Of a stretch of DNA of 32,000 nucleotides, positions 1,973-22,282 are shown in pieces. A program made the translations under genes and the position numbers. Numbering within the stretch: the stretch's first letter is position 1; every line of letters starts with the position of its first letter. The stretch lies in the NCBI GenBank assembly GCA_015075165.1, contig JABTUY010000002.1, positions 875,868 through 907,867 of the forward strand. The letters run 5' to 3'. This DNA is from Ideonella sp. (GTDB lineage Bacteria; Pseudomonadota; Gammaproteobacteria; Burkholderiales; Burkholderiaceae_C). Under the pieces are notes generated by a model. That model saw only the letters and a program-made list of their open reading frames with translations, did no database searches and was not told the origin of the DNA.

Positions 1973-1993
1973 GGCCAGCAAAGGGAAGACCGC

Positions 1994-4333: not shown

Positions 4334-4361
4334 TGGCGCAGCGCCCACGAGGAGCCGCCCG

Positions 4362-6497: not shown

Positions 6498-6555
6498 GCT
6501 GTCTGCCGGCACTCGGTCGGCATGGGCGTTCGGTTCTCGATTCCTGATCGTTGGT

Positions 6556-6717: not shown

Positions 6718-6745
6718 TTGCTATGGCTTGGATACACTCTTCGCC

Positions 6746-7383: not shown

Positions 7384-7446
7384 TGCCTTCGACTGCGACG
7401 GCTTGGTCGTACCCAAGGCGCGTTGCTGTGGGGTCACGAGCAATCT

Positions 7447-7617
7447 CTTCCGTGGGCGCTCGATGTCGGCATCTTCCGGTTGGCGAGTCCGCGCCGCGCC
7501 AGGCTGGCCTGTTGCGCCACCTGTCCCCCGGCCCGGGCTGCGCCCGGACCTCCTCCTTTGCTTTGCGCGCAACTGGCCAGCCGGTCACGGCACTCGTGAA
7601 TCACCGTGGCACGCCCC
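7447..7617. repeat. Copy B of the ~160 bp structured intergenic repeat
   Basis: It is a direct repeat of 6556..6717 and shares the core GTCCGCGCCGCGCCAGGCTGGCC.GTTGCGC....TGTCCCCCGGCCCGGGC. Its outer stem is GGCCTGTTGCGC / GCGCAACTGGCC, with one mismatch. Confidence 0.75.
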
Positions 7618-7713
7618 GTCTTCAGCGAGGTTCGTACGCGACGCAGGCACAGATGAAGTTGGCTCGCGCGAACATCTTCCTGCGCCTTGTACGTCACCGC
7701 CATACACTGCCGC

Positions 7714-7863
7714 GTGCTGACCATCTGGGAGACGCCAACCTTTTTGTCCGAGGCGGCGCGAGTCTGGTCCGATGATGGGCGCTTGAAATCTTCTCATCGA
7801 TCGCCAAGAACGAACCTTGAAGATGCCCGCACGCAAGTCAGTCGAGACGCCATCCTCGGGTGA
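7714..7863 (+). pseudogene. Possible remnant of a RelE/HigB-like (COG4737-type) toxin gene, apparently internally deleted
   Basis: A 49-codon frame (GTG 7714 to TGA 7861-7863) begins MLTIWETPTFLSEAARVWSDD. This resembles the conserved N-terminus I recall for toxins partnered with COG2944-type XRE antitoxins. The rest is unrelated sequence and runs into the antitoxin start. Confidence 0.3.
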
Positions 7864-8128
7864 GGCGTTGGGCCGCAAGTTGCTGCAGTCGGTCGGCGAG
7901 ATGAAGGCTCACAAGTTCGCGCGCGTCACCGAGGTGCAGCTCAATGAGGTGGTCGAAGCAAGGCAGAGCACCGGTATGTCGCAGGCGGAGTTCGCTTCTG
8001 CGCTCAGCATCTCCAAGCGCACCCTCCAAGAATGGGAGCAGGGCCGACGGGCACCGTCCGGGGCGGCGCAGGCGCTCATTCGCATCGCGCGCAAGCATCC
8101 GCGCATTGTTCGTGAAGCACTTGCGTAA
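7823..8128 (+). CDS. XRE-family HTH antitoxin (COG2944/HigA-like)
   Basis: ATG 7823 is preferred; the track ORF starts at TTG 7817. It contains a typical HTH and C-terminal signature (MSQAEFASALSISKRTLQEWEQGRRAPSGAAQALIRIARKHP). Confidence 0.75.
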   Translation: MPARKSVETPSSGEALGRKLLQSVGEMKAHKFARVTEVQLNEVVEARQSTGMSQAEFASALSISKRTLQEWEQGRRAPSGAAQALIRIARKHPRIVREALA

Positions 8129-8215
8129 GCGGCCATCGCCTTATCACGGTCGAGGCGTTGCTGCCGGCTATGCCGTCTGCAGCCCTCGGGTGAACGAACG
8201 TTAGTTGGCCGTCTG

Positions 8216-8998
8216 ATGCCAGCGCTCTACGACTCCCTCGGCGCCACGTATGCACGGACTCGCTGCGCTGACCCAGCCATCGTCGACGCCTTGGCCGGGA
8301 AACTGCGCCTCGCGGCCGCCGGAGCCTATTTGGACTTGGCGTGCGGAACGGGCAACTACACAGTTGCTCTCAGCACGCTGGGTGGGGCCTGGAGCGGGGT
8401 TGACGCATCGGAGGTCATGCTCGCACAAGCCCGCAGCAAGGCCAGCTCAGTCGCTTGGTGTCTGGCGAGTGCCGATTCGCTCCCGTTCGCCGACGCCACG
8501 TTCGACGGTGCGATCTGCACGCTCGCCATCCACCACTTCCCAGCGCTCGAATCCTCATTCGCGGAAATTCGTAGAACGTTGCGCTCCGGGTGCTTCGCCA
8601 TCTTCACAGGGTTGGCCGAGCAGATGCACCGCTACTGGCTCTGCCACTACTTCCCGCAGATGATGGCTCGCTCAATCGAGAAGATGCCATCCGAGTCAGA
8701 GATCCGAGCTGCCCTTTCACGGGCTGGGTTCAGGTCGGTCGCGGTTACCCCGTTCTTCGTCACGCCAAAGCTTCAAGATCTCTTTCTCTACTCGGGCAAG
8801 CATCGGCCCGAGCTGTATCTGGATTCGGCGATTCGCGCAAACATCAGCTCTTTCTCCGGCCTCGCCCCAACCACAGAGCTCCGAGAAGGGCTCGCCCAGT
8901 TGACCGCAGACTTGCAGAGTGGAGCATTCGCTTCCGTCAAGGCTCGCTACTTCAACGAGCTCGGAGACTATGCCTATGTCACTGCGCGAGCGGGCTAG
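8216..8998 (+). CDS. Class I SAM-dependent methyltransferase (Methyltransf_11-like), small-molecule type
   Basis: It starts at ATG 8216. SAM motif I is present (YLDLACGTGNYT), followed by the post-I acidic residue (GVDASEVM) and DGAICTLAIHHF. Many A/T-ending codons set it apart from neighbouring genes. Confidence 0.85.
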   Translation: MPALYDSLGATYARTRCADPAIVDALAGKLRLAAAGAYLDLACGTGNYTVALSTLGGAWSGVDASEVMLAQARSKASSVAWCLASADSLPFADATFDGAICTLAIHHFPALESSFAEIRRTLRSGCFAIFTGLAEQMHRYWLCHYFPQMMARSIEKMPSESEIRAALSRAGFRSVAVTPFFVTPKLQDLFLYSGKHRPELYLDSAIRANISSFSGLAPTTELREGLAQLTADLQSGAFASVKARYFNELGDYAYVTARAG

Positions 8999-9255
8999 CC
9001 CATCGTTGCGCCCGACGGCCTGCAGGGGCCCGCGCCCGCTCCCGGCCGCATCGATCGACACCGCGGTACGCACCGTGTGGTGGCAAGTCGCGGTGCTCGC
9101 CGGGCCGAGGACGCCGGGTGATCGGATGGCGCAGGTAAAGGGGGAGCGGTCGGGCTGCGACAGCAGGCCGACCGCGGAGGACACGGAGCCAGCCGGTCAC
9201 CCGGTGGCCTCGGCCTCGCTCCGCCGCAGCAAGGATTGGATCGATCGCAGACCGC

Positions 9256-9710
9256 TCAACCGTGCCCGCAATCCAGCTCGTCGCGGTGGCCGAAGCCGAG
9301 CGAGTTGTCGATCAGGTACAGCCGCCGGGGCCTGAAGCGGTACCAGCTCACCTGCGCCAGCGCCTGCGCGATCGCCGCCGGCGCGCCGCGGCCCACCAGC
9401 GGGAAGCGCTGGCCGTACAGCTCGCGCGCGCGCTCGCGCGCGGCGCCTTGCAGCTCGTTGACCAGGCCCTCGGCCTGCAGGCCGGTGATCTGCGGCCAGT
9501 CGGCGTAGTCGCGCTGGATCGTCACCGCGCAGCGCGCGTCGTGCGCCACGTCCTGCACGTGGCGGCTGCGCGGCTTGGACAGAAAGACCAGGTCGAGCCC
9601 GTCGGGCGCGTAGAACACCGCCGCCGCCCACGGCGCGTGGCCGTGCGTGGCCAGCGTCATCACGTGGTGCTGTTGCAGCAGGCGCTGCACGCGCTCGCGT
9701 AGCGCGGCGT

Positions 9711-9714
<4 letters not shown>
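9256..9714 (-). CDS. YhbP/UPF0306-like split-barrel FMN-binding protein (pyridoxamine 5'-phosphate oxidase superfamily)
   Basis: Only the C-terminal part of track ORF 9256..11190 is credible. The proposed start is TTG at 9714, overlapping the regulator stop (TTGA). The sequence LLQQHHVMTLATHG...RFPLVGRG...LIDNSLGFGHRDEL resembles E. coli YhbP as I recall it (RFPVAR...FTDNTLGFGKK). Confidence 0.65.
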
Positions 9715-11444
<1,730 letters not shown>

Positions 11445-11502
11445 CGGGCGGCTCCTTCGCAACGCGAGTCAGCGTTGTACGCCGGCGCGGGGTGGTCGGG
11501 AC

Positions 11503-11516
11503 TTGAACGAAATCAA
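11503..11516. promoter_or_regulatory. FNR/CRP-family-like box TTGA-N6-TCAA (TTGAACGAAATCAA)
   Basis: It matches the outer TTGA/TCAA arms of the FNR consensus TTGAT-N4-ATCAA. It is centred about 65 bp upstream of the regulator ATG on the minus strand, within the divergent control region. Confidence 0.3.
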
Positions 11517-11597
11517 GACTCGCGACGACGTGGCCCCGGGGAATACCAGGGGCGCCGCCACGCTGCCCCACCGCCGCGCGCGCGGCCACGGCAACAG

Positions 11598-11609
11598 TTG
11601 ATCAATTGG
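11598..11609. promoter_or_regulatory. Candidate upstream activating sequence for the XylR/DmpR-type activator (TTGATCAATTGG)
   Basis: It is an AT-richer palindromic core (TTGATCAA) in otherwise GC-rich DNA, about 145 bp upstream of the -24 element. It resembles the TTGATCAA-type half-sites I recall for XylR/DmpR UAS. Confidence 0.3.
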
Positions 11610-11745
11610 TGGGCAGCGGCCCTCGGCGCGGCGCGATTTCACCAAATGCGCAAGTGTCGCCGGCGCCGCTGCGCGGCCATCACGCGCCGTGCCAGCCGTG
11701 TCGGCCACGCGCTTCCCAGGTGAACGGGCGCGGGCAGCAGACCCC

Positions 11746-11761
11746 TGGCACGAACCGTGCA
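11746..11761 (+). promoter_or_regulatory. Sigma54 (-24/-12) promoter of the pps-ppc operon
   Basis: The sequence TGGCAC-GAACC-GTGCA has exact GG-N10-GC spacing. It lies about 68 bp upstream of the ppsA ATG, next to a divergent sigma54 activator gene. Confidence 0.7.
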
Positions 11762-11828
11762 ACAGACACCGGGTACGGCCCGGCCGGGCCCGACGATGCC
11801 GACCCCACACACGAACAGGAGACAGGCG

Positions 11829-13664
11829 ATGAAATTTCCGGTTCCGCACGACGTCAAGGCCAAGACCATTCCCGGTACCGAAGGCTGGGAGCGGATGTAT
11901 CCGTACCAGTATCAATTCGTCACCGACGACGCGGTGCGCAACCAGTACGAGAAGGAGACGTTCTGGTTCTACGACGGGCTGCACTACCCCGAGCCGCTGT
12001 ACCCGTTCGACACCATCTGGGACGAGGCCTGGTACCTCGCGCTGAGCCAGTACAACAACCGCATCTTCATGGTCCCGCCGGTGCGCGGCGTCGACCACCG
12101 CGTGATCAACGGCTACGTCTACATCTCGCCGGTGCCGGTGAAGGACGGCAACGAGATCGGCTCGCGGGTGCCGCACTTCATGGAGCGCGCCGGCCACTAC
12201 TACAAGAACTGGGACGCGCTCGAGGCCAAGTGGAAGGTCAAGATGGAAGCGACCATCCGCGAACTCGAGGCGCTGAAGATCCCGCCGCTGCCCGAGATGG
12301 AAGACAGCCGCGTCGTCACCGAAGCGCTCGGCGAGTCCACCGGCTTTCATCTGCTGAAGGCCTACGACGACCTGATCAACCTCGGCATCAAGTGCTGGCA
12401 GTACCACTTCGAGTTCCTGAACCTGGGCTATGCGGCCTACGTGTTCTTCCTCGACTTCGTGCAGAAGCAGTTCCCGAGCATCCCGGCGCAGCGGGTGACG
12501 CAGATGATCTCGGGCATCGACGTGATCATGTACCAGCCCGACGAGGAGCTGAAGAAGCTCGCGGCGAAGGCGATCGAGCTCGGCGTCGGCGATCTGGTGA
12601 AGTCCAGCCCCGAGTGGGCCAAGGTCGAGGCGTCGCTCAAGGCCGATGGCAAGGGCCGCGAGTGGCTCAGCGCACTGAGCCTGGCCAAGGAGCCGTGGTT
12701 CAACGTCTCCACCGGCACCGGCTGGTTCCACCACGACCGCTCGTGGAACGATCAGATGAACGTGCCGCTGCTCGGCATCCAGACCTACATCGACAAGATC
12801 CGCGCCGGCGTGTCGATCGAGCGGCCGACCGCGAAGGTGCGCGCCGAGCGCGACCGCATCACCGCCGAGTACCGCGACCTGATCACCAACGAGGCCGACC
12901 GCAAGCAGTTCGACGAGCTGCTCGGCTGCGCGAAGACGGTGTTCCCGTACGTCGAGAACCACCTGTTCTACGTGGAGCACTGGTTCCACTCGGTGTTCTG
13001 GAACAAGATGCGCGAGGTGGCGGCGATCCTGAAGACGCACGGCGTGATCGCCGACGTCGAAGACGTCTGGCTGCTGCGCCGCGACGAGATCAAGCAGGCG
13101 CTGTGGGACGTGGTCACCGCCTGGGCCACCGGCGTGACGCCGCGCGGCACCAAGACCTGGCCGCCCGAGATCGAATGGCGCAAGGGCGTGATGGCCAAGT
13201 TCAAGGCCTGGGCGCCGCCGCCGGCGATCGGCACCGCGCCCGAGGTGATCCAGGAGCCGTTCACCATCGTGCTGTGGGGCGTGACGAACAAGTCGCTGGC
13301 CGACTGGGCCGCGGTGCAGGAAGTCGGCGACCCCGACAAGATCTCCGAGCTCAAGGGCTTTGCCGGCAGCCCCGGCATCGTCGAGGGCAAGGCGCGCGTG
13401 TGCCGCACGGTGGCCGAGGTGGGCGAGCTGAAGGAGGGCGAGATCCTGGTCGCGCCCACCACCTCGCCGTCGTGGGCACCGGCGTTCGCCAAGATCGGCG
13501 CCTGCGTCACCGACGTCGGCGGCGTGATGAGCCATGCCGCGATCGTCTGCCGCGAGTACGGCATGCCGGCGGTGGTGGGTACCGGCCACGCCACCAAGGT
13601 GATCAAGAGCGGCATGATGCTGCGCGTCGACGGCTCGACGGGCGCGGTGAGCATCGCGCGCTGA
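11829..13664 (+). CDS. ppsA: Phenylphosphate synthase protein 1 (PEP-synthase-like central/phosphohistidine swivel part), 611 aa, about 70 kDa
   Basis: It starts at ATG 11829 with AGGAG 7 nt upstream, in the frame of track ORF 11757..13664. The PEP-utilising mobile domain carries the phosphohistidine motif GGVMSHAAIVCREYGMPAVVG. Size and order (70, 40 and 24 kDa proteins) match the described Thauera system. Confidence 0.9.
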   Translation: MKFPVPHDVKAKTIPGTEGWERMYPYQYQFVTDDAVRNQYEKETFWFYDGLHYPEPLYPFDTIWDEAWYLALSQYNNRIFMVPPVRGVDHRVINGYVYISPVPVKDGNEIGSRVPHFMERAGHYYKNWDALEAKWKVKMEATIRELEALKIPPLPEMEDSRVVTEALGESTGFHLLKAYDDLINLGIKCWQYHFEFLNLGYAAYVFFLDFVQKQFPSIPAQRVTQMISGIDVIMYQPDEELKKLAAKAIELGVGDLVKSSPEWAKVEASLKADGKGREWLSALSLAKEPWFNVSTGTGWFHHDRSWNDQMNVPLLGIQTYIDKIRAGVSIERPTAKVRAERDRITAEYRDLITNEADRKQFDELLGCAKTVFPYVENHLFYVEHWFHSVFWNKMREVAAILKTHGVIADVEDVWLLRRDEIKQALWDVVTAWATGVTPRGTKTWPPEIEWRKGVMAKFKAWAPPPAIGTAPEVIQEPFTIVLWGVTNKSLADWAAVQEVGDPDKISELKGFAGSPGIVEGKARVCRTVAEVGELKEGEILVAPTTSPSWAPAFAKIGACVTDVGGVMSHAAIVCREYGMPAVVGTGHATKVIKSGMMLRVDGSTGAVSIAR

Positions 13665-13666
13665 TC

Positions 13667-14788
13667 ATGCTGGCGGCCGTGCAGTCGACACCGCAGCGCG
13701 CGGCGCCCGGCGCCGCGCCCACCGTGCGCTGGTTCGAGGACTGCGACAAGTCCTCGTTGCCCGAGGTGGGCGGCAAGTGCGCCTCGCTCGGCGAGCTGAT
13801 CCACGCCCAGGTGCGCGTGCCGCCGGGCTTCGCCGTCACCACGCACGGCTGTACGCGCTTCCTGCGCGAGGCCGGCATCCTGCCGGAGATCGCCGGCCTG
13901 CTGCAGGGCCTGCCGCACGACGACATCGTGCGGCTGGAGCAGGCGTCGGCGGCGATCCGCCAGATGATCGAATCGCGCCCGATGGCCATCGAGCTCGAAG
14001 ACGAGATCGCCGAGGCCTACCGGCGCCTCGCGCTGCGCTGCGGCCTGCCGGCCGCGCCGGTGGCGGTGCGCTCCAGCGCCACCGCCGAAGACCTGCCCGG
14101 CGCCAGCTTCGCGGGCCAGCAGGACACCTTCCTGTGGATCCGCGGCGCCGACGAGCTGCTGCACCACGTGCGGCGCTGCATCTCGAGCCTGTACACCGCG
14201 CGCGCCATCGGCTACCGGCAGAAGATGGGCTTCGATCATGCGCAGGTGGCGATCAGCGTCGGCGTGCAGAAGATGGCCAACGCGTTCACCGCCGGCGTGA
14301 TGTTCACCGTGCACCCGGCCAACGGCGACCGCTCGGTGATCGTGATCGACTCCAACTTCGGCTTCGGCGAGTCGGTGGTGTCGGGCGAGGTCACGCCGGA
14401 TCACTTCGTCGTCAACAAGGTGACGCTCGACATCACCGAGCGCACCATCTCGCGCAAGGAGCGCTGCTACACGGTCGACCTCAAGTCGCAGTGCAGCCGC
14501 GCGATCGACGTGCCGCTCGAGCGCCAGACCGTGCAGTCGCTGATCGACGACGAGATCTGCGAGCTGGCCTGGATGGGCAAGCAGATCGAGAAGCACTACG
14601 GCTGCCCGATGGACATCGAGTGGGCGGTCGACAAGGACGTGCCCTCGGGCGGCAACATCTTCATCCTGCAGGCGCGCCCCGAGACGGTGTGGAGCGCGAA
14701 GGCCAAGGCGGCCAGCGCGGCCCCGGCCGAAACCTCGGCGATGAACTACATCGTGTCGGGCCTGCTGTCGGGCCGCAGGCTCGGCTGA
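13667..14788 (+). CDS. ppsB: Phenylphosphate synthase protein 2 (PEP-synthase N-terminal ATP-grasp/nucleotide-binding part), 373 aa
   Basis: It starts at ATG 13667, 2 nt after the ppsA stop, in the frame of track ORF 11606..14788. PPDK_N-type motifs are present (VGGKCASLGEL, VAVRSSATAEDLPGASFAGQQDT, MDIEWAVD). Confidence 0.9.
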   Translation: MLAAVQSTPQRAAPGAAPTVRWFEDCDKSSLPEVGGKCASLGELIHAQVRVPPGFAVTTHGCTRFLREAGILPEIAGLLQGLPHDDIVRLEQASAAIRQMIESRPMAIELEDEIAEAYRRLALRCGLPAAPVAVRSSATAEDLPGASFAGQQDTFLWIRGADELLHHVRRCISSLYTARAIGYRQKMGFDHAQVAISVGVQKMANAFTAGVMFTVHPANGDRSVIVIDSNFGFGESVVSGEVTPDHFVVNKVTLDITERTISRKERCYTVDLKSQCSRAIDVPLERQTVQSLIDDEICELAWMGKQIEKHYGCPMDIEWAVDKDVPSGGNIFILQARPETVWSAKAKAASAAPAETSAMNYIVSGLLSGRRLG

Positions 14789-14810
14789 CCACGAACAAGG
14801 AGACCGCTGC

Positions 14811-15485
14811 GTGATCGTGCGCAACTGGATGAAGCCGACACCGACCACGGTAACCGGCGACACGCTGCTCAGCGAGGCCAACCAGATCTTCGCCGACAGC
14901 AACTTGCATGGACTGCCGGTGGTCGAGGGCGGCCGGCTGCGCGGGCTGATCACGCGCGCCAACTGCCTGCGCGCGGCGCACCACGTGGCGCGCACGCAGA
15001 GCCCCGACGAGTTCGCCTACTTCTCGAGCCGGCTGCGCGTGCGCGACCTGATGGTGCGCAACCCGGCCACTGTCGACGCCGACGAGACGATGGAGGCCTG
15101 CCTGCAAAAAGGCCAGGAGCTGCGCATCGGCCAGTTCCCGGTGATGAGCCAGGGCGCGGTGGTCGGCATGATCTCGGCCAACGAGGTGTTCGCGATGGCG
15201 GCGCACTTCCTCGGCGCGTTCGAGCGCCGCAGCGGCGTCACGCTGGCGCCGATGGCGCTGGTGCCGGGCGCGATCGGCCGCGTCACCGATGTCGTCGAGG
15301 CCAGCGGCGCCGAAGTGGTGGCGATCTACCCGATCGGCTCGGGCCGCACGCCATCGCCACTGAAGAAGCTGGTCGTGCGCTTTCACGGCGGCTGTGCGCG
15401 CACGGTGAGCGAAGCGCTCGAGCGCGCCGGCTACGCGGTGATCGAGTCGGTCGAAGACGCGCACGCCGTCGCCCGCGCGGCCTGA
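14811..15485 (+). CDS. ppsC: Phenylphosphate synthase stimulating protein 3 (tandem CBS domains plus ACT-like tail), 224 aa
   Basis: It starts at GTG 14811 with AAGGAG 8 nt upstream. Two CBS repeats are visible (VRNWMKPTPTTV...GLPVVEGGRLRGLIT and VRDLMVRNPATV...FPVMSQGAVVGMIS). The 24 kDa size matches protein 3. Confidence 0.85.
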   Translation: MIVRNWMKPTPTTVTGDTLLSEANQIFADSNLHGLPVVEGGRLRGLITRANCLRAAHHVARTQSPDEFAYFSSRLRVRDLMVRNPATVDADETMEACLQKGQELRIGQFPVMSQGAVVGMISANEVFAMAAHFLGAFERRSGVTLAPMALVPGAIGRVTDVVEASGAEVVAIYPIGSGRTPSPLKKLVVRFHGGCARTVSEALERAGYAVIESVEDAHAVARAA

Positions 15486-15535: not shown

Positions 15536-16954
15536 ATGGACCTTCGCAGCTACATCGATCAATGCGCACACGCCGGCGAACTCAAGCGCGTGTCGGCGCC
15601 GGTCGACTGGAACCTGGAAATCTCGCACATCTCCAAGCTGGTCGAGGAGCGCAAGGGCCCGGCACTGCTGTTCGAGAACGTCAAAGGCTACTCGACGCCG
15701 GTGTTCACCGGTGCGTTCGCCACCACCAAGCGGCTGGCGATCATGCTCGGGCTGCCGCACGGCAACACGCTGTGCGAGTCGGCGCAGGCGTGGATGAAGA
15801 AGACGATCACCGCCGAAGGCCTGATCAAGGCCAAGCAGGTCAACGACGGCCCGGTGCTCGAGAACGTGTTCGAGGGCGACAAGGTCAATCTCGAGATGTT
15901 CCCGGTGCCGCGCTTCTTTCCGCTCGACGGCGGGCGCTACATCGGCACCACGGTGTTCGTCGTGCTCAAAGACCCCGAGACCGGCGAGACGAACCTCGGC
16001 ACCTATCGCATGCAGATGCTCGACCACAAGAGCTGCGGCGTGCAGATCCTGCCGGGCAAGCGCGGCGAGCGCATCATGAAGAAGTACGCCAAGCTGGGCA
16101 AGAAGATGCCCGCCGCGGCGGTGATCGGCTGCGACCCGCTGCTGTTCATGGCCGGCACGCTGATGCACAAGGGCGCCAGCGACTTCGACATCACCGGCAC
16201 CGTGCGCGGCCAGCAGGCCGAGTACCTGATGGCGCCGCTCACCGGCCTGCCGGTGCCCGCGGGCGCCGAGATCGTGCTCGAGGGCGAGATCGACCCCACG
16301 GCGTTTCGCCCCGAAGGGCCGTTCGCCGAGTACACCGGCTACTACACCGACGAGCTGCACAAGCCGATTCCGAAGCCGGTGCTCGAGGTCAAGCAGATCC
16401 TGCACCGCAACCAGCCCATCCTGTGGGCCACCGGCCAGGGCCGCCCGGTCACCGACGTGCACATGCTGCTGTCGTTCACGCGCACGGCCACGCTGTGGAC
16501 CGAGCTCGAGAAGATGAAGATCCCGGGCATCCACAACGTCTGCGTGCTGCCTGAGTCGGCCGGCCGCTTCTGGGCCGTGGTGTCGGTCAAGCAGGCCTAC
16601 CCGGGCCACTCGCGCCAGGTGGCCGATGCGGTGATCGGCAGCAACACCGGCAGCTACGGCATCAAGGGCGTGATCACGGTCGACGAGGACATCGCCGCCG
16701 ACGACCTGCAGCGCGTGGTGTGGGCGCTGTCGTGCCGCTACGACCCGATGCGCGGCACCGAGCTGATCAAGCGCGGCCGTTCGACGCCGCTCGACCCCGC
16801 ACTCGACCCCAACGGCGACAAGCTGACCACGTCGCGCATCCTGATGGACGCCTGCATCCCCTACGAGTGGAAGCAAAAACCCGTCGAGTCGCGGCTCGAC
16901 GACGAGACGCTCGCGCGACTGCGCGGCCGCTGGGCCGAGTTCGGCCTCGATTGA
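15536..16954 (+). CDS. ppcB: Phenylphosphate carboxylase UbiD-family subunit, 472 aa (probably beta)
   Basis: UbiD-family motifs are present (NLGTYRMQ, EGPFAEYTGYY). It follows ppsC directly. The alpha/beta assignment is by size only (472 aa versus 484 aa). Confidence 0.85.
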   Translation: MDLRSYIDQCAHAGELKRVSAPVDWNLEISHISKLVEERKGPALLFENVKGYSTPVFTGAFATTKRLAIMLGLPHGNTLCESAQAWMKKTITAEGLIKAKQVNDGPVLENVFEGDKVNLEMFPVPRFFPLDGGRYIGTTVFVVLKDPETGETNLGTYRMQMLDHKSCGVQILPGKRGERIMKKYAKLGKKMPAAAVIGCDPLLFMAGTLMHKGASDFDITGTVRGQQAEYLMAPLTGLPVPAGAEIVLEGEIDPTAFRPEGPFAEYTGYYTDELHKPIPKPVLEVKQILHRNQPILWATGQGRPVTDVHMLLSFTRTATLWTELEKMKIPGIHNVCVLPESAGRFWAVVSVKQAYPGHSRQVADAVIGSNTGSYGIKGVITVDEDIAADDLQRVVWALSCRYDPMRGTELIKRGRSTPLDPALDPNGDKLTTSRILMDACIPYEWKQKPVESRLDDETLARLRGRWAEFGLD

Positions 16955-16961
16955 GCAAACC

Positions 16962-17510
16962 ATGAACGACAAGACCGAACGCGCCGGGCGCACACGCTTC
17001 GCCGAGCTGAGCAAACTGCTGTCCAGCCTGCCGTGCCCCGAGACGCTGCTGTGCGTGCGCGCCGGCGAAGTCACCGACGTCGCCGCGGTGACCACGATGT
17101 GGGTGTCGTACGACCCGGTGATCGTCGCCGTCTACCTGCGCCCGGGCATCCGCACGCACAAGCTGGTCAACGAGGGGCGGCAGTTCACGCTCAACGTCGT
17201 CGACGAGGCGCAAAACCCGCAGGCGCTGCTGGCCGGCTCGCTCAAGGGCGACGACCCCGACAAGCTGAAGAAGCTGGCGCTGCAGTTCGAGCCCGCGGCG
17301 TCGATCGACAGCCCGCGCGTGAGCGGCGCGGCGGCGAGCTACGAATGCCGCGTGCTGAAGGTGGCCGCGTGCGGCGACCACGACCTGTTCCTCGGTCTCG
17401 TCACCGGTTGGAACGTGCGCGACGGCGGCAAGCCGGTGGTGCGCTGGGGCGGACACAGCCACGCCATCGGGGCGACGCTCGAAGCCCCCGCCGTCAAGTA
17501 CCCACATTAG
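16962..17510 (+). CDS. Flavin reductase-like (Flavin_Reduct split-barrel) domain protein, 182 aa
   Basis: It starts at ATG 16962. The family pattern is AAVTTMWVSYDPVIVAVYL...GRQFTLNVV...SPRVSGAAASYECRVLKVAACGDHDLFLGLV, which compares with HpaC-type reductases (...PP.v.v....F.vNvl....P.l.ga.a.leC.....GDH.lf.g.V). Confidence 0.75.
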   Translation: MNDKTERAGRTRFAELSKLLSSLPCPETLLCVRAGEVTDVAAVTTMWVSYDPVIVAVYLRPGIRTHKLVNEGRQFTLNVVDEAQNPQALLAGSLKGDDPDKLKKLALQFEPAASIDSPRVSGAAASYECRVLKVAACGDHDLFLGLVTGWNVRDGGKPVVRWGGHSHAIGATLEAPAVKYPH

Positions 17511-17553: not shown

Positions 17554-18063
17554 ATGGACAAGGCCAAGAACGTGAAGCTGGTGATCCTCGACGTCGACGG
17601 CGTGATGACCGACGGCCGCATCGTCATCGACGACAACGGCGTCGAGCAGCGCAATTTCGACATCAAGGACGGCCTGGGCGTCGTCGCGCTGCAGATGTGC
17701 GGTGTCGACGTGGCGATCATCACGTCGAAGAAGTCGGGCTCGGTGCGCCACCGCGCCGAAGAGCTGAAGATCAAGCGCTTCCACGAGGGCATCAAGAAGA
17801 AGACCGAGCCCTACGAGCAGATGCTCGCCGAGATGGGCATCGGCGATGCGCAGGTGGCCTATGTCGGCGACGACCTGGTCGACCTCTCGTTGATGAAGCG
17901 CGTGGGCTTTCCGGTCGCGGTGGCCGATGCAGTGCCCGAGGTGCGCGCCGCCGCCGCCTACGTGACACAGGCACGCGGCGGCCACGGTGCCGTGCGCGAG
18001 GCCGCCGAGGCGATTCTCAAGGCACAGGGCAAGTGGGACGCCATCCTGGCCAAGATCGGCTGA
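17554..18063 (+). CDS. ppcD: Phenylphosphate carboxylase delta subunit (KdsC-like HAD phosphatase), 169 aa, about 18 kDa
   Basis: It starts at ATG 17554 with AGGAGAGG upstream. HAD motif I is present (LVILDVDGVMTDG), and similarity to KdsC runs throughout (YVGDDLVDLSLMKRVGFPVAVADA, GGHGAVREAAEAIL). Confidence 0.85.
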   Translation: MDKAKNVKLVILDVDGVMTDGRIVIDDNGVEQRNFDIKDGLGVVALQMCGVDVAIITSKKSGSVRHRAEELKIKRFHEGIKKKTEPYEQMLAEMGIGDAQVAYVGDDLVDLSLMKRVGFPVAVADAVPEVRAAAAYVTQARGGHGAVREAAEAILKAQGKWDAILAKIG

Positions 18064-18095
18064 ATCTCTCATCCAACCAACAGGAGCACACGCAA

Positions 18096-19550
18096 GTGGC
18101 CGTACCACCGCGCAGCAACCGCGAGTTCGTCGAAGCCTGCATCGCCTCGGGCGATGCGGTGCGCATCGCACAGCAGGTCGACTGGGACAACGAGGCCGGC
18201 GCCATCGTGCGCCGCGTCTGCGAGCTGGCGGCGCCGGCGCCGTTGATGGAGAGCATCAAGGACTATCCCGGTTTCCGCTACTTCGGCGCGCCGCTGTCCA
18301 CCTACCGCCGCATGGCGATCTCGATGGGGCTTGATCCGAAGACCCCGCTGCCCGAGTTGGGCCGCGAGTACCTCAAGCGCACCAACGGCGAGCCGGTGCA
18401 GCCGGTGCTGGTCGACCGCCGCGCCGCGCCGTGCAAGGAGAACATCCTGCGCGGCAACGATGTCGACCTGTGCCGCCTGCCGGTGCCGCTGGTGCACGAC
18501 GGCGACGGTGGCCGCTACGTCGGCACCTGGCACGCGGTGATCACCAGGCACCCGGTGCGCGGCGACGTCAACTGGGGCATGTACCGCCAGATGATGTACG
18601 ACTCGCGCACGATGTCGGGCGCGGTGTTCCCGTTCTCCGACCTCGGCAAGGCGCTGAACGAGTACTACCTGCCGCGCGGCGAGACCTGTCCGTTTGCCAC
18701 CGCGATCGGCCTGTCGCCGCTGGCGGCGATGGCCGCGTGCGCGCCGTCGCCGATCCCCGAGCCCGAGCTGACCGGCATGCTGGCCGGCGAGCCGGTGAAG
18801 CTGGTGAAGTGCGAGACCAACGACCTCGAGGTGCCGGCCGACGCCGAGATCATCCTCGAGGGCGAGATCCTGCCCGACTACACGGTCGAGGAGGGGCCGT
18901 TCGGCGAGTACACCGGCTACCGCACCAGCCCGCGCTCGCCACGCGTCACGTTCCGCGTCAACTGCATTACCTACCGCAACAACGCGACGATGACGATCTC
19001 CAACATGGGCGTGCCGCAGGACGAAGGGCAGCTGCTGCGCTCGTTCTCGCTCGGCCTGGAGCTCGAGAAGCTGCTGAAGAGCCAGGGCATCCCGGTGACC
19101 GGCGTCTACATGCACCCGCGCTCGACGCACCACATGATGATCGTCGGCGTCAAGCCCACCTACGCCGGCATCGCGATGCAGATCGCGCAGCTCGCGTTCG
19201 GCTCCAAGTTGGGGCCGTGGTTCCACATGGTCATGGTGGTCGACGATCAGACCGACATCTACAACTGGGACGAGGTCTATCACGCGTTCTGCACGCGCTG
19301 CAACCCCGAGCGCGGCATCCACGTGTTCAAGAACACCACCGGCACCGCGCTGTACCCGCACGCCAGCCCGCACGACCGCCAGTACTCGATCGGCTCGCAG
19401 GTGCTGTTCGACTGTCTGTGGCCGGTGGACTGGGACAAGATCAACGACGTGCCGTCGCTGGTGTCGTTCCGCAACGTCTACCCGAAGGCAGTACAGGAGA
19501 AGGTGCTCGCCAACTGGACGAACTACGGCTTCGCGCCCACCACACGCTGA
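18096..19550 (+). CDS. ppcA: Phenylphosphate carboxylase UbiD-family subunit, 484 aa (probably alpha)
   Basis: It starts at GTG 18096 with AGGAG 9 nt upstream, in the frame of track ORF 17697..19550 (the 5' part of that ORF overlaps ppcD out of frame). UbiD motifs are present (NWGMYRQM, EGPFGEYTGYR). Confidence 0.85.
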   Translation: MAVPPRSNREFVEACIASGDAVRIAQQVDWDNEAGAIVRRVCELAAPAPLMESIKDYPGFRYFGAPLSTYRRMAISMGLDPKTPLPELGREYLKRTNGEPVQPVLVDRRAAPCKENILRGNDVDLCRLPVPLVHDGDGGRYVGTWHAVITRHPVRGDVNWGMYRQMMYDSRTMSGAVFPFSDLGKALNEYYLPRGETCPFATAIGLSPLAAMAACAPSPIPEPELTGMLAGEPVKLVKCETNDLEVPADAEIILEGEILPDYTVEEGPFGEYTGYRTSPRSPRVTFRVNCITYRNNATMTISNMGVPQDEGQLLRSFSLGLELEKLLKSQGIPVTGVYMHPRSTHHMMIVGVKPTYAGIAMQIAQLAFGSKLGPWFHMVMVVDDQTDIYNWDEVYHAFCTRCNPERGIHVFKNTTGTALYPHASPHDRQYSIGSQVLFDCLWPVDWDKINDVPSLVSFRNVYPKAVQEKVLANWTNYGFAPTTR

Positions 19551-19567: not shown

Positions 19568-19822
19568 ATGAGCCAATGGGAAGTGTTCGTCACCGACCTC
19601 GCCGAGCTGGCCGAGGGGCGCGACCTGGAGCTGACGATCCGCACGCTCGAGCCGGGTATCCACAAATACACCTACAAGCGCGCCAAGGTGCGTGTCTCGG
19701 CCAAGACCGATGCGCTGCCCGACGGTCTGCAGGTGCGCTTCGGCCGTGGCCAGCTGGCGCCGCAGCGCTACTCGCTCAAGCTGCTCGAGGAGGTCGATCG
19801 CCTGCCGCCCAAGTACCGCTGA
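19568..19822 (+). CDS. ppcC: Small (84 aa, about 10 kDa) protein, candidate phenylphosphate carboxylase gamma subunit
   Basis: It starts at ATG 19568, at the tail of track ORF 18431..19822. Its size and position immediately after the large subunit match the described 10 kDa gamma subunit. I recognise no independent motif. Confidence 0.65.
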   Translation: MSQWEVFVTDLAELAEGRDLELTIRTLEPGIHKYTYKRAKVRVSAKTDALPDGLQVRFGRGQLAPQRYSLKLLEEVDRLPPKYR

Positions 19823-19843
19823 ACGCGACAGGGAGTGCTCGAC

Positions 19844-21193
19844 ATGGCGTGGCGCGACCTGCGGGCGTTTCTCGACGGGCTGGGCAGCGGCCTGCGCCGC
19901 GTGCGCGAGCCGTTCTCGCCGCGCTTCGAGATCGCCGCCGCGCTGCGCGAGGCGCGCGCCGATGCACCGGCGCTGCTGTTCGAGTCGGTCACCGGGCACC
20001 CGGGCTGGCGCGTCTGCGGCAACCTGATCGCCAGCCGCGAGCGGCTGGCGCGCGCGTTCCACACCACGCCGGACCGGCTCGCCGAGGAATACCTGCAACG
20101 CCGCCAGCGCGGCATCGAGCCGATCGGCGCTACGCAGGTGCCGGTGAAAGAGGTCGTGCTGACGCACGCCGACGACCTGCTCGGCACGCTGCCGATCCTC
20201 ACGCACCACGAGCGCGACGGCGCGCCGTACATCACCACCGGTGTCGTGCTGTGCAACGAGCCCGGCAGCGGGCGCCGCGGCATGGGAATCCACCGCATGC
20301 AGGTGCATGGTCCGCGCCGGCTCGGCCTGTTCCTGGCCAACCCGCCGCTGACGCTGTTTCACGCCGCCGCCGAGGCGCGCGGCGAGCCGCTCGAAGTGGC
20401 GGTGGCGCTGGGGCTCGAGCCGGCGCTGGTGGTGGCCGCGGTGTGCAAGGTGGGCCCGCTGGTGCCCGACAAGATGGCGATCGCCGGCGCACTGCGCGGC
20501 GAGCCGGTGCCGCTGATCCGCGGCGAGACGGTGGCGGTGGAGGTGCCCGCACGCGCCGAGGTGGTGATCGAAGGCCGCGTGCTGCCCGGCGTGCGCCAGC
20601 ACGAGGGCCCGTTCGGCGAGAACACCGGCGCCTACTTCAGCGCCGACAGCGCGGTAATCGAGGTCACCGCGGTCACGCACCGGCGCGAGCCGATCTACCC
20701 TGGCCTGACGCCGTGGGCGGCCGATGTCGACATGCTGCTGTGGCTGGCCGCCGGCACCGAGCTGCTCGGCCAGTTGCGCGCGCTGGTGGGCGACGTGGCC
20801 GATCTCGAGCTGGTCGGCGGCACCGCGGGCTTCTCGATGGTGGTGTCGGTGTCGGGTACCTCGCGCTCCGAGGTGAGGCGGCTGATCCACCTGGCGCTCG
20901 CGCTCGACAAGCGGTTGAAATGCGTGACCGTGGTCGACGACGACGTCGACATCCGCAACCCGCGCGAGGTGGCCTGGGCGATGGCCACGCGCCACCGGCC
21001 GCAGCACGACACCATCGTCATCGCCGGCACCGATGCCTACGTGATCGACCCGTCGGCCGCCGGCGCGGGCCAAGGCTCGAAAATCGGCTTCGACGCCACG
21101 CGCGGCGGCGGCGGCGCGGCGTTCGACAAGGCGCGGCTCGAGCCGCAGGCGCTGGCCAAGGCGCGCGCGGTGCTCGGCGAGTCGATGGCGTGA
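19844..21193 (+). CDS. Third UbiD-family (prFMN-dependent decarboxylase/carboxylase) paralog, 449 aa, function unknown
   Basis: It starts at ATG 19844 with GGGAG 8 nt upstream. UbiD motifs are present (GMGIHRMQV, EGPFGENTGAY). It is shorter and more divergent than ppcA/ppcB. Confidence 0.85.
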   Translation: MAWRDLRAFLDGLGSGLRRVREPFSPRFEIAAALREARADAPALLFESVTGHPGWRVCGNLIASRERLARAFHTTPDRLAEEYLQRRQRGIEPIGATQVPVKEVVLTHADDLLGTLPILTHHERDGAPYITTGVVLCNEPGSGRRGMGIHRMQVHGPRRLGLFLANPPLTLFHAAAEARGEPLEVAVALGLEPALVVAAVCKVGPLVPDKMAIAGALRGEPVPLIRGETVAVEVPARAEVVIEGRVLPGVRQHEGPFGENTGAYFSADSAVIEVTAVTHRREPIYPGLTPWAADVDMLLWLAAGTELLGQLRALVGDVADLELVGGTAGFSMVVSVSGTSRSEVRRLIHLALALDKRLKCVTVVDDDVDIRNPREVAWAMATRHRPQHDTIVIAGTDAYVIDPSAAGAGQGSKIGFDATRGGGGAAFDKARLEPQALAKARAVLGESMA

Positions 21194-21252
21194 CATGATG
21201 GCGTGAGGTGCCGGGGCAGCCGGCAGGTCTGACGGTCAACAAGAGGGTGACG

Positions 21253-21840
21253 ATGCGACTCGTGGTCGGAATGTCCGGTGCCAGCGGCGCCATCTATGGC
21301 GTGCGCATCCTCGAGGTGCTGAAGCAGCTGCAAGTCGAGACGCACCTGGTGATGTCCGACTCGGCCAAGCGCACCATCGTCTACGAAACCGATCGCAGCA
21401 TCGACGAGGTGAAGGCGCTCGCCAACCACGTGCACGAGCTGGCCGACGTCGGCGCCTGCATCTCCAGCGGCTCGTTCAAGCACGACGGCATGGTGATCGC
21501 GCCGTGCTCGATCAAGACGCTGTCGGCGCTGGCGCATTCGTTCAACACCAACCTGCTGATCCGCGCCGCCGACGTCACGCTCAAAGAGCGCCGCAAGCTC
21601 GTGTTGATGGTGCGCGAGACGCCGCTGCACCTGGGGCACCTGCGGCTGATGACGCAGGTCACCGAGACCGGCGCCGTACTGGTGCCACCGCTGCCGGCGT
21701 TCTACCACCGGCCGAAGACGCTCGACGACATCATCAACCAGTCGGTCAACAAGGCGCTCGACCAGTTCGGCGTCGATTGCAGCCTGTTCAAGCGCTGGAC
21801 CGGCAACGAAGAGCGCGAGCATGCCCGCTCGCGCGCCTGA
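21253..21840 (+). CDS. ubiX: Flavin prenyltransferase UbiX (prFMN synthase), 195 aa
   Basis: It starts at ATG 21253. The canonical UbiX/Pad1 N-terminus is present (MRLVVGMSGASGAIYGVRILEVL), along with MVIAPCSIKTLSA, LVLMVRETPLH and PAFYHRPKT. Confidence 0.9.
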   Translation: MRLVVGMSGASGAIYGVRILEVLKQLQVETHLVMSDSAKRTIVYETDRSIDEVKALANHVHELADVGACISSGSFKHDGMVIAPCSIKTLSALAHSFNTNLLIRAADVTLKERRKLVLMVRETPLHLGHLRLMTQVTETGAVLVPPLPAFYHRPKTLDDIINQSVNKALDQFGVDCSLFKRWTGNEEREHARSRA

Positions 21841-22282
21841 GCCGCCTGCGGTCGCGTCGCCGCAGGCTGCCTCGTCGCCAGCGGTGCCGGGCGCCGCCGC
21901 CTGTTTCACCGGCGTGGTGTGCAGCGGCCTCGGCGAGGGCGCGCGCTTCGTCGCGATCGACTGGGTGCAGCGCGAGATGCGGCGCGCGCTCGGCTTCGAG
22001 CCGTGGCCCGGCACCTTGAACCTGCGCATGGCCGGCACCGCGTGGCAGCGCTGGCGCCGCGCGCTGGCGCAGCGCCCGGGCATCGTGCTGCACCCGGCGG
22101 CCGGGTTTTGCGCCGCGCGCTGCTTCGCCGTGCGCCTCGACGGGCGCACAGCGGCTGCGGCGGTGATCCCCGACGTCGACGGCTACCCCGACGACAAGCT
22201 CGAACTGGTGGCGCCGCTGGCGCTGCGCGAAGCCCTGAACCTGCGCGACGGCAGCCTGGTCCGCGTCAGCTTCGACCGATGA
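21821..22282 (+). CDS. Archaeal-type CTP-dependent riboflavin kinase (DUF120/RibK) homolog
   Basis: The core GVVCSGLGEGARFVAIDWVQREMRRALGFEPWPGTLNLRM ... ELVAPLALREALNLRDGSLVRVSF is colinear with Methanocaldococcus MJ0056 as I recall it (GEVVSGLGEGRYF...LGFEPYEGTLNLKL...[23 protein letters not shown]). ATG 21821 overlaps the ubiX 3' end by 20 nt. The first 28 aa are low-complexity, so an alternative start at GTG 21884 is possible. Confidence 0.7.
   Translation: MPARAPEPPAVASPQAASSPAVPGAAACFTGVVCSGLGEGARFVAIDWVQREMRRALGFEPWPGTLNLRMAGTAWQRWRRALAQRPGIVLHPAAGFCAARCFAVRLDGRTAAAAVIPDVDGYPDDKLELVAPLALREALNLRDGSLVRVSFDR

What the first reader, a model, noticed from the sequence alone, without database searches (positions are those of the whole stretch)
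16962..17510. Flavin-reductase-like gene inserted between phenylphosphate carboxylase subunit genes
A 182 aa Flavin_Reduct-type split-barrel protein sits between ppcB and ppcD, with 7 bp and 43 bp gaps, so it is almost certainly co-transcribed and probably made in comparable amounts. The biochemically described carboxylase has four subunit types (two UbiD-like, a KdsC-like phosphatase, and a 10 kDa protein) and no flavin reductase. The protein could be a fifth, overlooked component or a cofactor-maturation factor.
Basis: partly seen in the sequence, partly recalled or inferred. Interest (0 to 1): 0.6.

Follow-up and report, generated by a model that had tools for sequence, protein, structure and literature searches.

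The report
Flavin reductase gene inside phenol-carboxylase operon
A small flavin-reductase-type gene really does sit inside this oxygen-free phenol-degradation operon, but most related operons lack it. It is therefore probably an optional helper that prepares the flavin cofactor of the carboxylase, not a missing fifth subunit.

Summary
ORF 16962-17510 (182 aa) scores 75.7 bits on Pfam Flavin_Reduct and lies 7 bp after ppcB and 43 bp before ppcD, in the string ppsABC-ppcB-FR-ppcD-ppcA-ppcC-UbiD3-UbiX-riboflavin kinase.

FR is a canonical class I HpaC-like split-barrel protein. It keeps the SxxPP-like (SYDPV) and GDH motifs, and its model matches solved reductases and flavoredoxins at Z about 21.

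It belongs to a small, sharply bounded subfamily that I found only in phenol islands:
- 23 Burkholderiales-type loci carry it in this same slot.
- Three Deferrisomatales genomes carry it after ppsB, beside a riboflavin-kinase/HAD fusion.
- More distant Flavin_Reduct genes sit in the same slot in three other Desulfobacterota genomes, and directly after Nudix-UbiX in a fourth.

Most ppc clusters lack any such gene: three of three genomes of a sister genus, and 64 of 71 PpcB-positive Desulfobacterota.

Best reading (about 0.5): an optional, co-regulated flavin oxidoreductase serving prFMN supply, most likely reducing FMN for UbiX. A PhdC-like maturase role is the main rival. A general fifth subunit is unlikely.

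No activity was tested. Earlier notes of this scan flagged the same association on this window and on other DNA.

The parts
16962..17510 (+). FR: 182-aa Flavin_Reduct (class I HpaC-like split-barrel) protein, the subject of the finding
   Evidence: PF01613 at 75.7 bits. AF2 model pLDDT 84. VIA Z 20-21.6 to SgcE6, PH0856, ThdF and PheA2. Best solved relative by sequence is PH0856/2r6v, E 3.4e-19.
17106..17120 (+). S49-Y-D-P52-V53, the SxxPP-type flavin-binding motif of the family
   Evidence: Aligns with VSFDPF (PH0856), VSIDPP (1eje), LSADPP (1usc) and VSLNPK (PheA2). S49, Y50, P52 and V53 are invariant in 20 family members.
17142..17159 (+). P61-G-I-R-T-H66 loop at the N-terminus of helix 64-72, the expected FMN-phosphate site
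   Evidence: Aligns with KRTTHK of PH0856. The helix lies between strands 53-59 and 74-79 in the model. In this fold the phosphate binds at the N-terminus of that helix (PMC13040415). P61 and H66 are invariant.
17373..17381 (+). G138-D139-H140, the GDH motif of class I flavin reductases
   Evidence: Aligns with the GDH of PH0856, 1eje, 1usc and PheA2. G138 and H140 are invariant. PhdC lacks this motif.
17499..17507 (+). Invariant C-terminal Y180-P181-H182 tail, specific to this subfamily; role unknown
   Evidence: Invariant in all 20 aligned members, including the 41%-identical P0045. Low pLDDT in the model.
15536..16954 (+). ppcB, UbiD-type beta subunit of phenylphosphate carboxylase
   Evidence: TIGR02724 at 1003.6 bits.
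17554..18063 (+). ppcD, KdsC-like HAD phosphatase (delta subunit); strong SD AGGAGAGG upstream
   Evidence: TIGR02726 at 311.9 bits; sequence.
18069..19550 (+). ppcA, UbiD-type alpha subunit (start approximate)
   Evidence: UbiD_N, UbiD and UbiD_C domains.
19568..19822 (+). ppcC, 84-aa gamma subunit
   Evidence: PF09662 Phenyl_P_gamma at 124.6 bits; frame and start.
19835..21193 (+). Third UbiD paralogue (UbiD3)
   Evidence: UbiD_N, UbiD and UbiD_C domains.
21208..21840 (+). UbiX flavin prenyltransferase, the only UbiX in this genome; proposed consumer of FMNH2
   Evidence: NF004685 at 269 bits, TIGR00421 at 251 bits. Single copy in G000.
21821..22282 (+). Archaeal-type (DUF120, CTP-dependent) riboflavin kinase homologue
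   Evidence: PF01982 at 102.9 bits.
11757..15485 (+). ppsA (11757-13664), ppsB (13667-14788), ppsC/CBS (14811-15485): phenylphosphate synthase
9711..11462 (-). XylR/DmpR-type sigma-54 activator (PheR-like), divergent from the operon
   Evidence: XylR_N, V4R, Sigma54_activat and HTH_8 domains. The PheR role in Aromatoleum is described in PMC10715001.

Best explanation
[quoted passage not shown] It serves the prenylated-flavin (prFMN) cofactor economy of the three UbiD-type proteins of the phenol island. The most likely mechanism is that it binds FMN and reduces it to FMNH2, with NAD(P)H as the expected donor because the GDH motif is kept. FMNH2 is the form that the co-transcribed prenyltransferase UbiX needs, together with dimethylallyl phosphate, to make prFMNH2. 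The riboflavin-kinase homologue in the same operon would supply the FMN. Shown here: gene, family, fold, motifs, operon position and comparative distribution. Inferred: FMN binding, the electron donor, hand-over to UbiX, and benefit under phenol induction.
For: (1) Family, fold and both diagnostic motifs are kept. (2) UbiX uses reduced FMN (PMC7662398). In vitro prFMN synthesis is routinely driven by adding a flavin reductase (Fre) with NADH, FMN, DMAP and UbiX (PMC13040415 methods). FR would be a natural, co-regulated equivalent. (3) The tight subfamily was found only in phenol islands. There are 13 genome and 10 metagenome loci with ppcB-FR-ppcD. In three Deferrisomatales genomes it follows ppsB, and in the two with downstream sequence a riboflavin-kinase(DUF120)+HAD fusion comes next, 9 kb from the ppc genes. 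(4) A second lineage of Flavin_Reduct genes (24-29% identical) occupies the same ppcB|ppcD slot in three other Desulfobacterota genomes. In a fourth genome such a gene directly follows Nudix-UbiX. On a quick tree the window's subfamily is one clade (SH-aLRT 99). The other island copies fall in a different clade (97) together with non-island reductases. (5) The gene is dispensable in many ppc clusters, which fits a helper whose chemistry other cellular reductases can provide. (6) The operon holds the genome's only UbiX, so prFMN demand and supply are co-located.
Against: No biochemical data exist. The genome already has three other Flavin_Reduct paralogues, so a dedicated FMN reductase is not obviously needed. 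The subfamily has invariant features that a generic free-flavin reductase would not need: the C-terminal YPH, LPCPE, and C25/C129. These hint at a specific partner or substrate. Its best solved relatives (PH0856, MTH152, flavoredoxin) are FMN-holding proteins, not proven free-flavin reductases. In Burkholderiales the gene sits among structural ppc genes, not next to UbiX. The second lineage has GDY in place of GDH.
Confidence: 0.5

Rival explanations
1. FR is a prFMN redox maturase or repair enzyme, a functional analogue of PhdC/YclD. It would oxidise prFMNH2 or the prFMN radical to the active iminium form without O2, or re-reduce mis-oxidised cofactor, using its bound FMN or NAD(P)+ as the redox partner.
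For: PhdC, encoded in a UbiD-UbiX operon, has the same HpaC-like fold and matures prFMN. The physiological oxidant in strict anaerobes is stated to be unknown (PMC13040415). FR sits among UbiD-type genes of an oxygen-free pathway. Subfamily-specific invariant residues suggest a special substrate.
Against: PhdC lacks the SxxPP and GDH motifs and relies on Glu47, Glu136 and a C-terminal ExW motif. FR keeps both reductase motifs and has no ExW anywhere in its sequence. No chain named PhdC appears among the 33 sequences the FR profile matches at E<=10, nor among the 50 best structural matches listed. NAD+ did not serve PhdC as oxidant. Most anaerobes with ppc clusters lack FR, so it cannot be the general anaerobic solution.
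Confidence: 0.2
2. FR has a redox function unrelated to prFMN. It could be a flavoredoxin-like electron carrier or a quinone/ene/nitro-type reductase that detoxifies reactive by-products of phenolic substrates. It could also feed electrons to another island enzyme.
For: The closest solved relative, PH0856, was crystallised with p-hydroxybenzaldehyde and hydroquinone bound (3zoc and 3zod). Related Desulfobacterota reductases lie in unrelated contexts beside metallo-beta-lactamase-fold, aldo-keto-reductase and nitroreductase genes. The window also encodes parts of the 4-hydroxybenzoyl-CoA reductase electron-supply system.
Against: This does not explain the repeated adjacency to UbiX, Nudix and the riboflavin-kinase homologue in other layouts. 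It also does not explain why the tight subfamily was found only in pps/ppc islands.
Confidence: 0.15
3. FR is a stoichiometric fifth subunit of phenylphosphate carboxylase in these lineages.
For: It lies between two structural genes with very short spacers and holds that slot in 23 loci. It has an invariant C-terminal tail.
Against: It is absent from closely related, otherwise syntenic clusters whose PpcB is 89% identical to the window's. It lies next to ppsB, 9 kb from the ppc genes, in Deferrisomatales. Within Burkholderiales it diverges faster (65-85%) than PpcB, PpcA and PpcD (85-95%). The window copy has no SD. From my own knowledge (the Thauera paper is not held in the library): the enzyme purified from Thauera has four subunit types.
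Confidence: 0.06
4. FR is the reductase component of a two-component flavin monooxygenase.
For: There are weak NCBIfam similarities to HpaC, StyB, HsaB and RutF.
Against: All scores are 17-39 bits against cut-offs of 200-340. No oxygenase partner was seen among the window's ORFs scanned with Pfam. The pathway is oxygen-independent.
Confidence: 0.03

Closest known systems
Class I HpaC-like short-chain flavin reductases and flavoredoxin-like FMN proteins (Pfam PF01613): PH0856/PhENR (2r6v, 3zoc), MTH152 (1eje), TtENR (1usc), flavoredoxin (2d5m), PheA2 (1rz0), SgcE6 (4hx6), ThdF (9fd5)
   Same: Same fold (Z 20-21.6 over 140-165 residues). Significant sequence similarity (E 3e-19 to 1e-7). SxxPP-type and GDH motifs and the phosphate-loop T-H-K align.
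   Different: Only about 30% identity to the best match. FR forms its own tight clade: profile scores drop from 178 to 88 bits outside it, and the quick tree gives SH-aLRT 99. It has its own invariant LPCPE, YEC and C-terminal YPH. Its context is a UbiD/UbiX operon with no monooxygenase partner.
PhdC (Mycolicibacterium fortuitum) and YclD: dedicated prFMN maturases encoded in UbiD-UbiX operons (PMC13040415; PDB 9SRG, 9SRJ)
   Same: A small accessory protein with the HpaC-like split-barrel flavin-binding fold, encoded together with UbiD and UbiX genes.
   Different: PhdC lacks SxxPP and GDH and uses Glu47, Glu136 and ExW. FR keeps the reductase motifs and has no ExW. No sequence match was detected. 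PhdC-like sequences are reported only from Actinomycetota.
Fre (E. coli NAD(P)H:flavin reductase) as used to drive UbiX in vitro
   Same: This is the proposed job: make FMNH2 for UbiX.
   Different: From my own knowledge, Fre belongs to a different fold family (the ferredoxin-NADP reductase type); I did not test this here. Fre is not encoded with UbiX.
Reductase components of two-component flavin systems (HpaC, StyB, RutF, HsaB)
   Same: The logic is the same: a small reductase co-transcribed with the enzyme that consumes reduced flavin.
   Different: Here the consumer would be a prenyltransferase that uses up FMNH2 as a substrate. FR scores far below every equivalog cut-off.
LpdD, the prFMNH2-binding chaperone of gallate decarboxylase (PMC10865409, listed)
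   Same: An accessory protein of a UbiD/UbiX system that improves activation.
   Different: I did not compare it with FR here. It is described as a chaperone without a catalytic role.

Membership tests
Pfam PF01613 Flavin_Reduct / class I HpaC-like flavin reductases | Profile match above the curated cut-off | tested here: met
   75.7 bits against a cut-off of 27, residues 34-168. The same hit appears in the genome-wide search.
Pfam PF01613 Flavin_Reduct / class I HpaC-like flavin reductases | Split-barrel FMN-binding fold | tested here: met
   AF2 pLDDT 84, pTM 0.79. Z 20-21.6, rmsd 1.8-2.2 A over about 142 residues to SgcE6, ThdF, CtcQ and 4l82. This is a prediction, not a solved structure.
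Pfam PF01613 Flavin_Reduct / class I HpaC-like flavin reductases | SxxPP motif | tested here: met
   S49-Y-D-P-V. The second Pro is Val, as in PH0856 (SFDPF). It aligns with the motif of four solved members.
Pfam PF01613 Flavin_Reduct / class I HpaC-like flavin reductases | GDH motif | tested here: met
   G138-D139-H140 aligns with the GDH of PH0856, 1eje, 1usc and PheA2. G and H are invariant in the subfamily; D is N in P0045.
Pfam PF01613 Flavin_Reduct / class I HpaC-like flavin reductases | NAD(P)H-dependent flavin reduction activity | not testable with these tools
   Needs an enzyme assay.
PhdC/YclD-type prFMN maturase | Encoded with UbiD and UbiX genes | tested here: met
   Same co-directional gene string as three UbiD paralogues and UbiX.
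PhdC/YclD-type prFMN maturase | Loss of the SxxPP and GDH motifs; conserved Glu47, Glu136 and C-terminal ExW | tested here: not met
   FR keeps both reductase motifs. No E-x-W occurs in its sequence. Criteria are from PMC13040415.
PhdC/YclD-type prFMN maturase | Detectable sequence or close structural similarity to PhdC (9SRG/9SRJ) | tested here: inconclusive
   No chain named PhdC appears among the 33 PDB sequences matched by the FR profile at E<=10, nor among the 50 best VIA rows. I could not confirm that the entry is in both libraries.
Phenylphosphate carboxylase subunits (alpha, beta, gamma, delta) | Match to one of the four subunit equivalog models | tested here: not met
   The beta and delta models (TIGR02724, TIGR02726) match neighbouring genes above cut-off. 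The gamma model matches 19568-19822 at 118 bits, below its NCBIfam cut-off, but Pfam Phenyl_P_gamma is met at 124.6 bits. The alpha gene was recognised only by its UbiD domains and position. FR matches none of these models.
Phenylphosphate carboxylase subunits (alpha, beta, gamma, delta) | Presence wherever the enzyme is encoded | tested here: not met
   Not found in three of three genomes of the sister genus g108. Not found in the islands of 64 of 71 PpcB-positive Desulfobacterota searched.
Phenylphosphate carboxylase subunits (alpha, beta, gamma, delta) | Physical association with the complex | not testable with these tools
   Needs co-purification. No multimer prediction is available here.
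Two-component monooxygenase reductases (HpaC, StyB, HsaB, RutF equivalogs) | Score above the equivalog cut-off, and an oxygenase partner nearby | tested here: not met
   17-39 bits against cut-offs of 200-340. No oxygenase was seen among the window's ORFs scanned with Pfam.

The most novel reading that the evidence does not exclude
FR is the missing oxygen-independent prFMN maturase of these anaerobic carboxylases. Its bound FMN would take two electrons from UbiX-made prFMNH2 to give the active iminium cofactor. The resulting FMNH2 would then pass to UbiX as the substrate for the next prenylation. That would be a redox-neutral cycle needing neither O2 nor an external oxidant. The invariant C-terminal YPH tail and LPCPE segment would be the docking elements for UbiX or a UbiD paralogue.
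Probability: 0.12. Interest if true: 0.85.

Novelty: new variant of a known kind. Interest (0 to 1): 0.5.

Why it matters
UbiD-type (de)carboxylases are of wide interest for CO2 fixation and aromatic breakdown, and activating them is often the bottleneck. Two steps remain unassigned in vivo. One is who supplies FMNH2 to UbiX. The other is what oxidises prFMNH2 when there is no oxygen; the 2025 PhdC paper says so explicitly. A conserved flavin oxidoreductase subfamily found only in anaerobic phenol-carboxylase islands is a concrete candidate for either step. So is the recurrence of more distant Flavin_Reduct genes beside UbiX, Nudix or riboflavin-kinase genes. The candidate is cheap to test. 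If it works, it would be a useful co-expression part for producing active Ppc and other oxygen-sensitive UbiD enzymes. If it is only a redundant FMN reductase, the finding is a modest annotation refinement.

Tried and rejected
I obtained contexts through the search for related loci, the genome search and the fetch from genomes instead.
- The classical Thauera papers (PMC438602, PMC94709, PMC529068) and the HpaC motif paper (PMC94324) are not held. I could not verify the named reference clusters. The Aromatoleum PheR paper gives no gene order.
- Random sampling for ppcD was inefficient. In the order it gave 2 of 401 over the cut-off, and in the phylum only the window's own genome.
- Same-genus relatives have no close FR homologue; the best is 30% identical.
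- The 160-bp ppcB-ppcD spacer of the FR-less cluster holds no remnant of FR, so loss and gain cannot be told apart. On the PpcB tree the FR-less genus is sister to all FR-bearing Burkholderiales clusters, but with only SH-aLRT 84.
- The ESM Atlas search returned only generic Flavin_Reduct clusters.
- A metal site formed by C25, C129, C137 and H140 was considered. C137 is not conserved in P0045, and I could not measure distances in the model, so I dropped it.
- The careful tree did not finish. The quick tree is used, and g_P0065 sits inside the tight clade on a very long branch, which is unreliable.

Full report
OBSERVATION. The window (70% G+C) carries a co-directional string of genes:
- ppsA 11757-13664
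- ppsB 13667-14788
- ppsC 14811-15485
- ppcB 15536-16954
- the ORF in question, 16962-17510 (called FR below)
- ppcD 17554-18063
- ppcA about 18069-19550
- ppcC 19568-19822
- a third UbiD paralogue, 19835-21193
- UbiX 21208-21840
- an archaeal-type (DUF120) riboflavin-kinase homologue, 21821-22282

A divergent XylR-type sigma-54 activator lies at 9711-11462.

FR is 182 aa and matches Pfam Flavin_Reduct at 75.7 bits against a cut-off of 27. The spacers are 7 and 43 bp. Its GC3 equals that of its neighbours. Nothing resembling an internal terminator or promoter on the coding strand exceeds chance.

One nuance: the window copy has no Shine-Dalgarno sequence, so translation would depend on coupling to ppcB. 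Most orthologues have GGGAGG or GAGGAGG before the start codon.

WHAT THE PROTEIN IS. An AlphaFold model built on 19 homologues (pLDDT 84) is a split barrel. It aligns at Z 20-21.6 with many solved class I HpaC-like reductases and flavoredoxin-like FMN proteins, including SgcE6, PH0856, ThdF, CtcQ and PheA2.

By sequence the best solved relative is Pyrococcus PH0856 (E 3e-19, about 30% identity). MTH152, flavoredoxin, the Thermus 1usc protein and PheA2 follow.

Both family motifs are present and align with those of the solved members:
- S49-Y-D-P-V, the SxxPP type
- G138-D-H140, the GDH motif
- the T-H-K at the N-terminus of helix 64-72, where this fold binds the flavin phosphate

NCBIfam equivalogs for monooxygenase reductases are missed by a wide margin.

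A SMALL, SHARPLY BOUNDED SUBFAMILY. A word-indexed search of 5.8 billion proteins found 44 relatives at 60-85% identity. Their sources name Rubrivivax, Burkholderiales and Deferrisomatales MAGs.

A profile search of 1.84 billion cluster representatives found only five clusters at E<=1e-30. The score then falls from 178 to 88 bits.

Invariant in all 20 aligned members, including the 41%-identical P0045:
- L-P-C-P in the LPCPE segment, just before strand 1
- M-W-x-S-Y-x-P-V-I (MWVSYDPVI in the window)
- Y-x-C (YEC in all but a few members)
- G-x-H
- a C-terminal Y-P-H

WHERE IT OCCURS. All 13 Burkholderiales-type genome loci show the same order as the window: ppcB-FR-ppcD, with the rest of the island wherever the contig allows. 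Their record names and the origin labels printed place them in Rubrivivax, Azohydromonas, Ottowia and unclassified Burkholderiales or Burkholderiaceae. All 10 informative metagenome loci show the same order.

In three Deferrisomatales genomes the same subfamily (60-70% identical) lies directly after ppsA-ppsB. In the two with downstream sequence, a fusion of the DUF120 kinase domain to a HAD phosphatase follows it. In those two, ppcB-ppcD-ppcA-ppcC-UbiD3-UbiX lie about 9 kb downstream with no reductase in the ppcB|ppcD slot; in the third, ppcB is on another contig.

FR is more conserved between the two phyla (67-70%) than any other island protein (33-64%). This suggests that FR moved separately from the rest of the island.

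A SECOND LINEAGE IN THE SAME PLACE. A search of 401 genomes of the Deferrisomatales phylum with the family profile found more distant Flavin_Reduct genes (24-29% identical, carrying GDY or GNH).
- In three genomes they lie exactly between ppcB and ppcD, in the order ppcB-FR-ppcD-(ppcD)-ppcA-ppcC-UbiD3-UbiX-kinase.
- In one Geobacter-type operon the order is ppsA-ppsB-ppcB-UPF0261-UPF0261-Nudix-UbiX-FR.

On a quick tree the window's subfamily is one clade (SH-aLRT 99). These other island copies fall in a different clade (97), together with reductases from unrelated neighbourhoods. So at least two Flavin_Reduct lineages are associated with phenol islands.

WHERE IT IS MISSING. In a sister genus of the same order, three of three genomes have an otherwise syntenic cluster, including UbiX and the kinase homologue in the one I examined in full. 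Its PpcB is 89% identical to the window's. There, ppcB is followed directly by ppcD, with spacers of 44-160 bp and no remnant of FR. One of these genomes is 98% complete and has no hit to the family profile anywhere.

In the Desulfobacterota sample, 71 of 401 genomes have a PpcB above the curated cut-off, but only 7 carry such a reductase in the island. In the 30 best loci, ppcB is usually followed directly by one or two ppcD genes.

The gene is therefore an optional accessory, not a general component of the enzyme.

MECHANISM. Phenylphosphate carboxylation itself involves no net redox chemistry (my own knowledge of the Thauera enzyme). The only flavin chemistry in the operon is the prFMN cofactor of the UbiD-type subunits.

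UbiX prenylates reduced FMN. In the test tube this reaction is driven by adding the reductase Fre with NADH. The operon contains the genome's only UbiX and a riboflavin-kinase homologue.

The simplest reading is a supply line: riboflavin to FMN (kinase homologue), FMN to FMNH2 (FR), then FMNH2 to prFMNH2 (UbiX). Two other layouts fit it:
- Nudix-UbiX-FR, where Nudix would supply dimethylallyl phosphate (inferred)
- FR next to the kinase/HAD fusion

Dispensability also fits, because other reductases can make FMNH2; this genome has three other Flavin_Reduct paralogues. I give this reading about 0.5.

THE MAIN RIVAL. PhdC is an HpaC-like-fold protein of a UbiD-UbiX operon that oxidises the prFMN radical to the active iminium form. 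The authors state that the physiological oxidant in strict anaerobes is unknown.

FR could be a functional counterpart, but it is not a PhdC family member:
- PhdC has lost SxxPP and GDH and uses Glu47, Glu136 and ExW. FR keeps both motifs and has no ExW.
- No chain named PhdC appears among the sequence-profile matches at E<=10, nor among the best 50 structural matches.

The subfamily's own invariant residues, especially the terminal YPH, keep this rival alive at about 0.2. They also allow the more novel idea of a redox-neutral exchange between prFMNH2 and FMN.

The remaining rivals are less likely: an unrelated detoxifying or electron-carrier role (about 0.15), a lineage-specific fifth subunit (about 0.06) and a monooxygenase reductase (about 0.03).

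LITERATURE AND EARLIER NOTES. Full-text searches found no paper linking a canonical flavin reductase to phenylphosphate carboxylase or to UbiX in vivo.

Earlier notes of this scan had already flagged the reductase together with the kinase/HAD fusion in another genome. They had also flagged a prFMN supply module on this same window. I re-derived both contexts independently here.

LIMITS. No experiment was done. Samples are not exhaustive. 

Noticed in passing
window 21208-21840; G000 contig C23: This 99.97%-complete genome has a single UbiX, the one in the sigma-54-controlled phenol island. It nevertheless has five UbiD-family genes, two of them elsewhere on contig C23. How those two get prFMN when phenol is absent is unclear.
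   Followed up: partly
L020:10607-11659; L024:10520-11587: In Deferrisomatales the gene after FR is a fusion of a DUF120 riboflavin-kinase domain with a HAD phosphatase. From my own knowledge, this recalls the plant riboflavin kinase/FMN hydrolase fusion, with a different kinase fold and domain order.
   Followed up: partly
L095 (G1391:C82) 4648-13463: A Geobacter-type phenol operon reads ppsA-ppsB-ppcB-UPF0261-UPF0261-Nudix-UbiX-Flavin_Reduct. Both presumed UbiX substrates would have a dedicated supplier next to UbiX.
   Followed up: partly
L114-L118, L121, L123, L125, L126, L135: Many Desulfobacterota ppc clusters carry two tandem ppcD (KdsC-like) genes directly after ppcB.
   Followed up: no
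L106, L108, L110: In three high-scoring Desulfobacterota loci, a 370-440 bp spacer between ppcB and ppcD shows no Flavin_Reduct similarity. It could hold another small ORF.
   Followed up: no
window 16955-16961: The window's FR has no Shine-Dalgarno sequence in the 7-nt spacer after the ppcB stop codon. Close orthologues have a 13-nt or longer spacer with GGGAGG. Translation here would depend on coupling to ppcB.
   Followed up: yes
proteins P0046 and P0044 (metagenome): Two database proteins join only the C-terminal half of this FR to an unrelated N-terminus: a DUF772 transposase fragment in one and an acetoacetate-decarboxylase fragment in the other. They are probably disrupted or chimeric copies.
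   Followed up: partly
window 9256-9714 (-): A PNPOx-like (PF01243, 38.6 bits) split-barrel ORF abuts the stop codon of the sigma-54 phenol regulator. It is a second small flavin-fold protein in the island.
   Followed up: no
window 3-6497: The left part of the window encodes the C-terminal part of a molybdopterin (MoCoBD_2) protein, a Fer4_20/Pyr_redox_2 NfnB-like protein, and an AMP-ligase with an N-terminal rubrerythrin-like segment. These are probably the 4-hydroxybenzoate-CoA ligase and 4-hydroxybenzoyl-CoA reductase electron-supply genes.
   Followed up: no
window vs L020/L062 and L090: FR is 67-70% identical between the window and Deferrisomatales, while every other island protein is 33-64% identical. 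This suggests FR was exchanged between the phyla separately from the ppc genes.
   Followed up: partly
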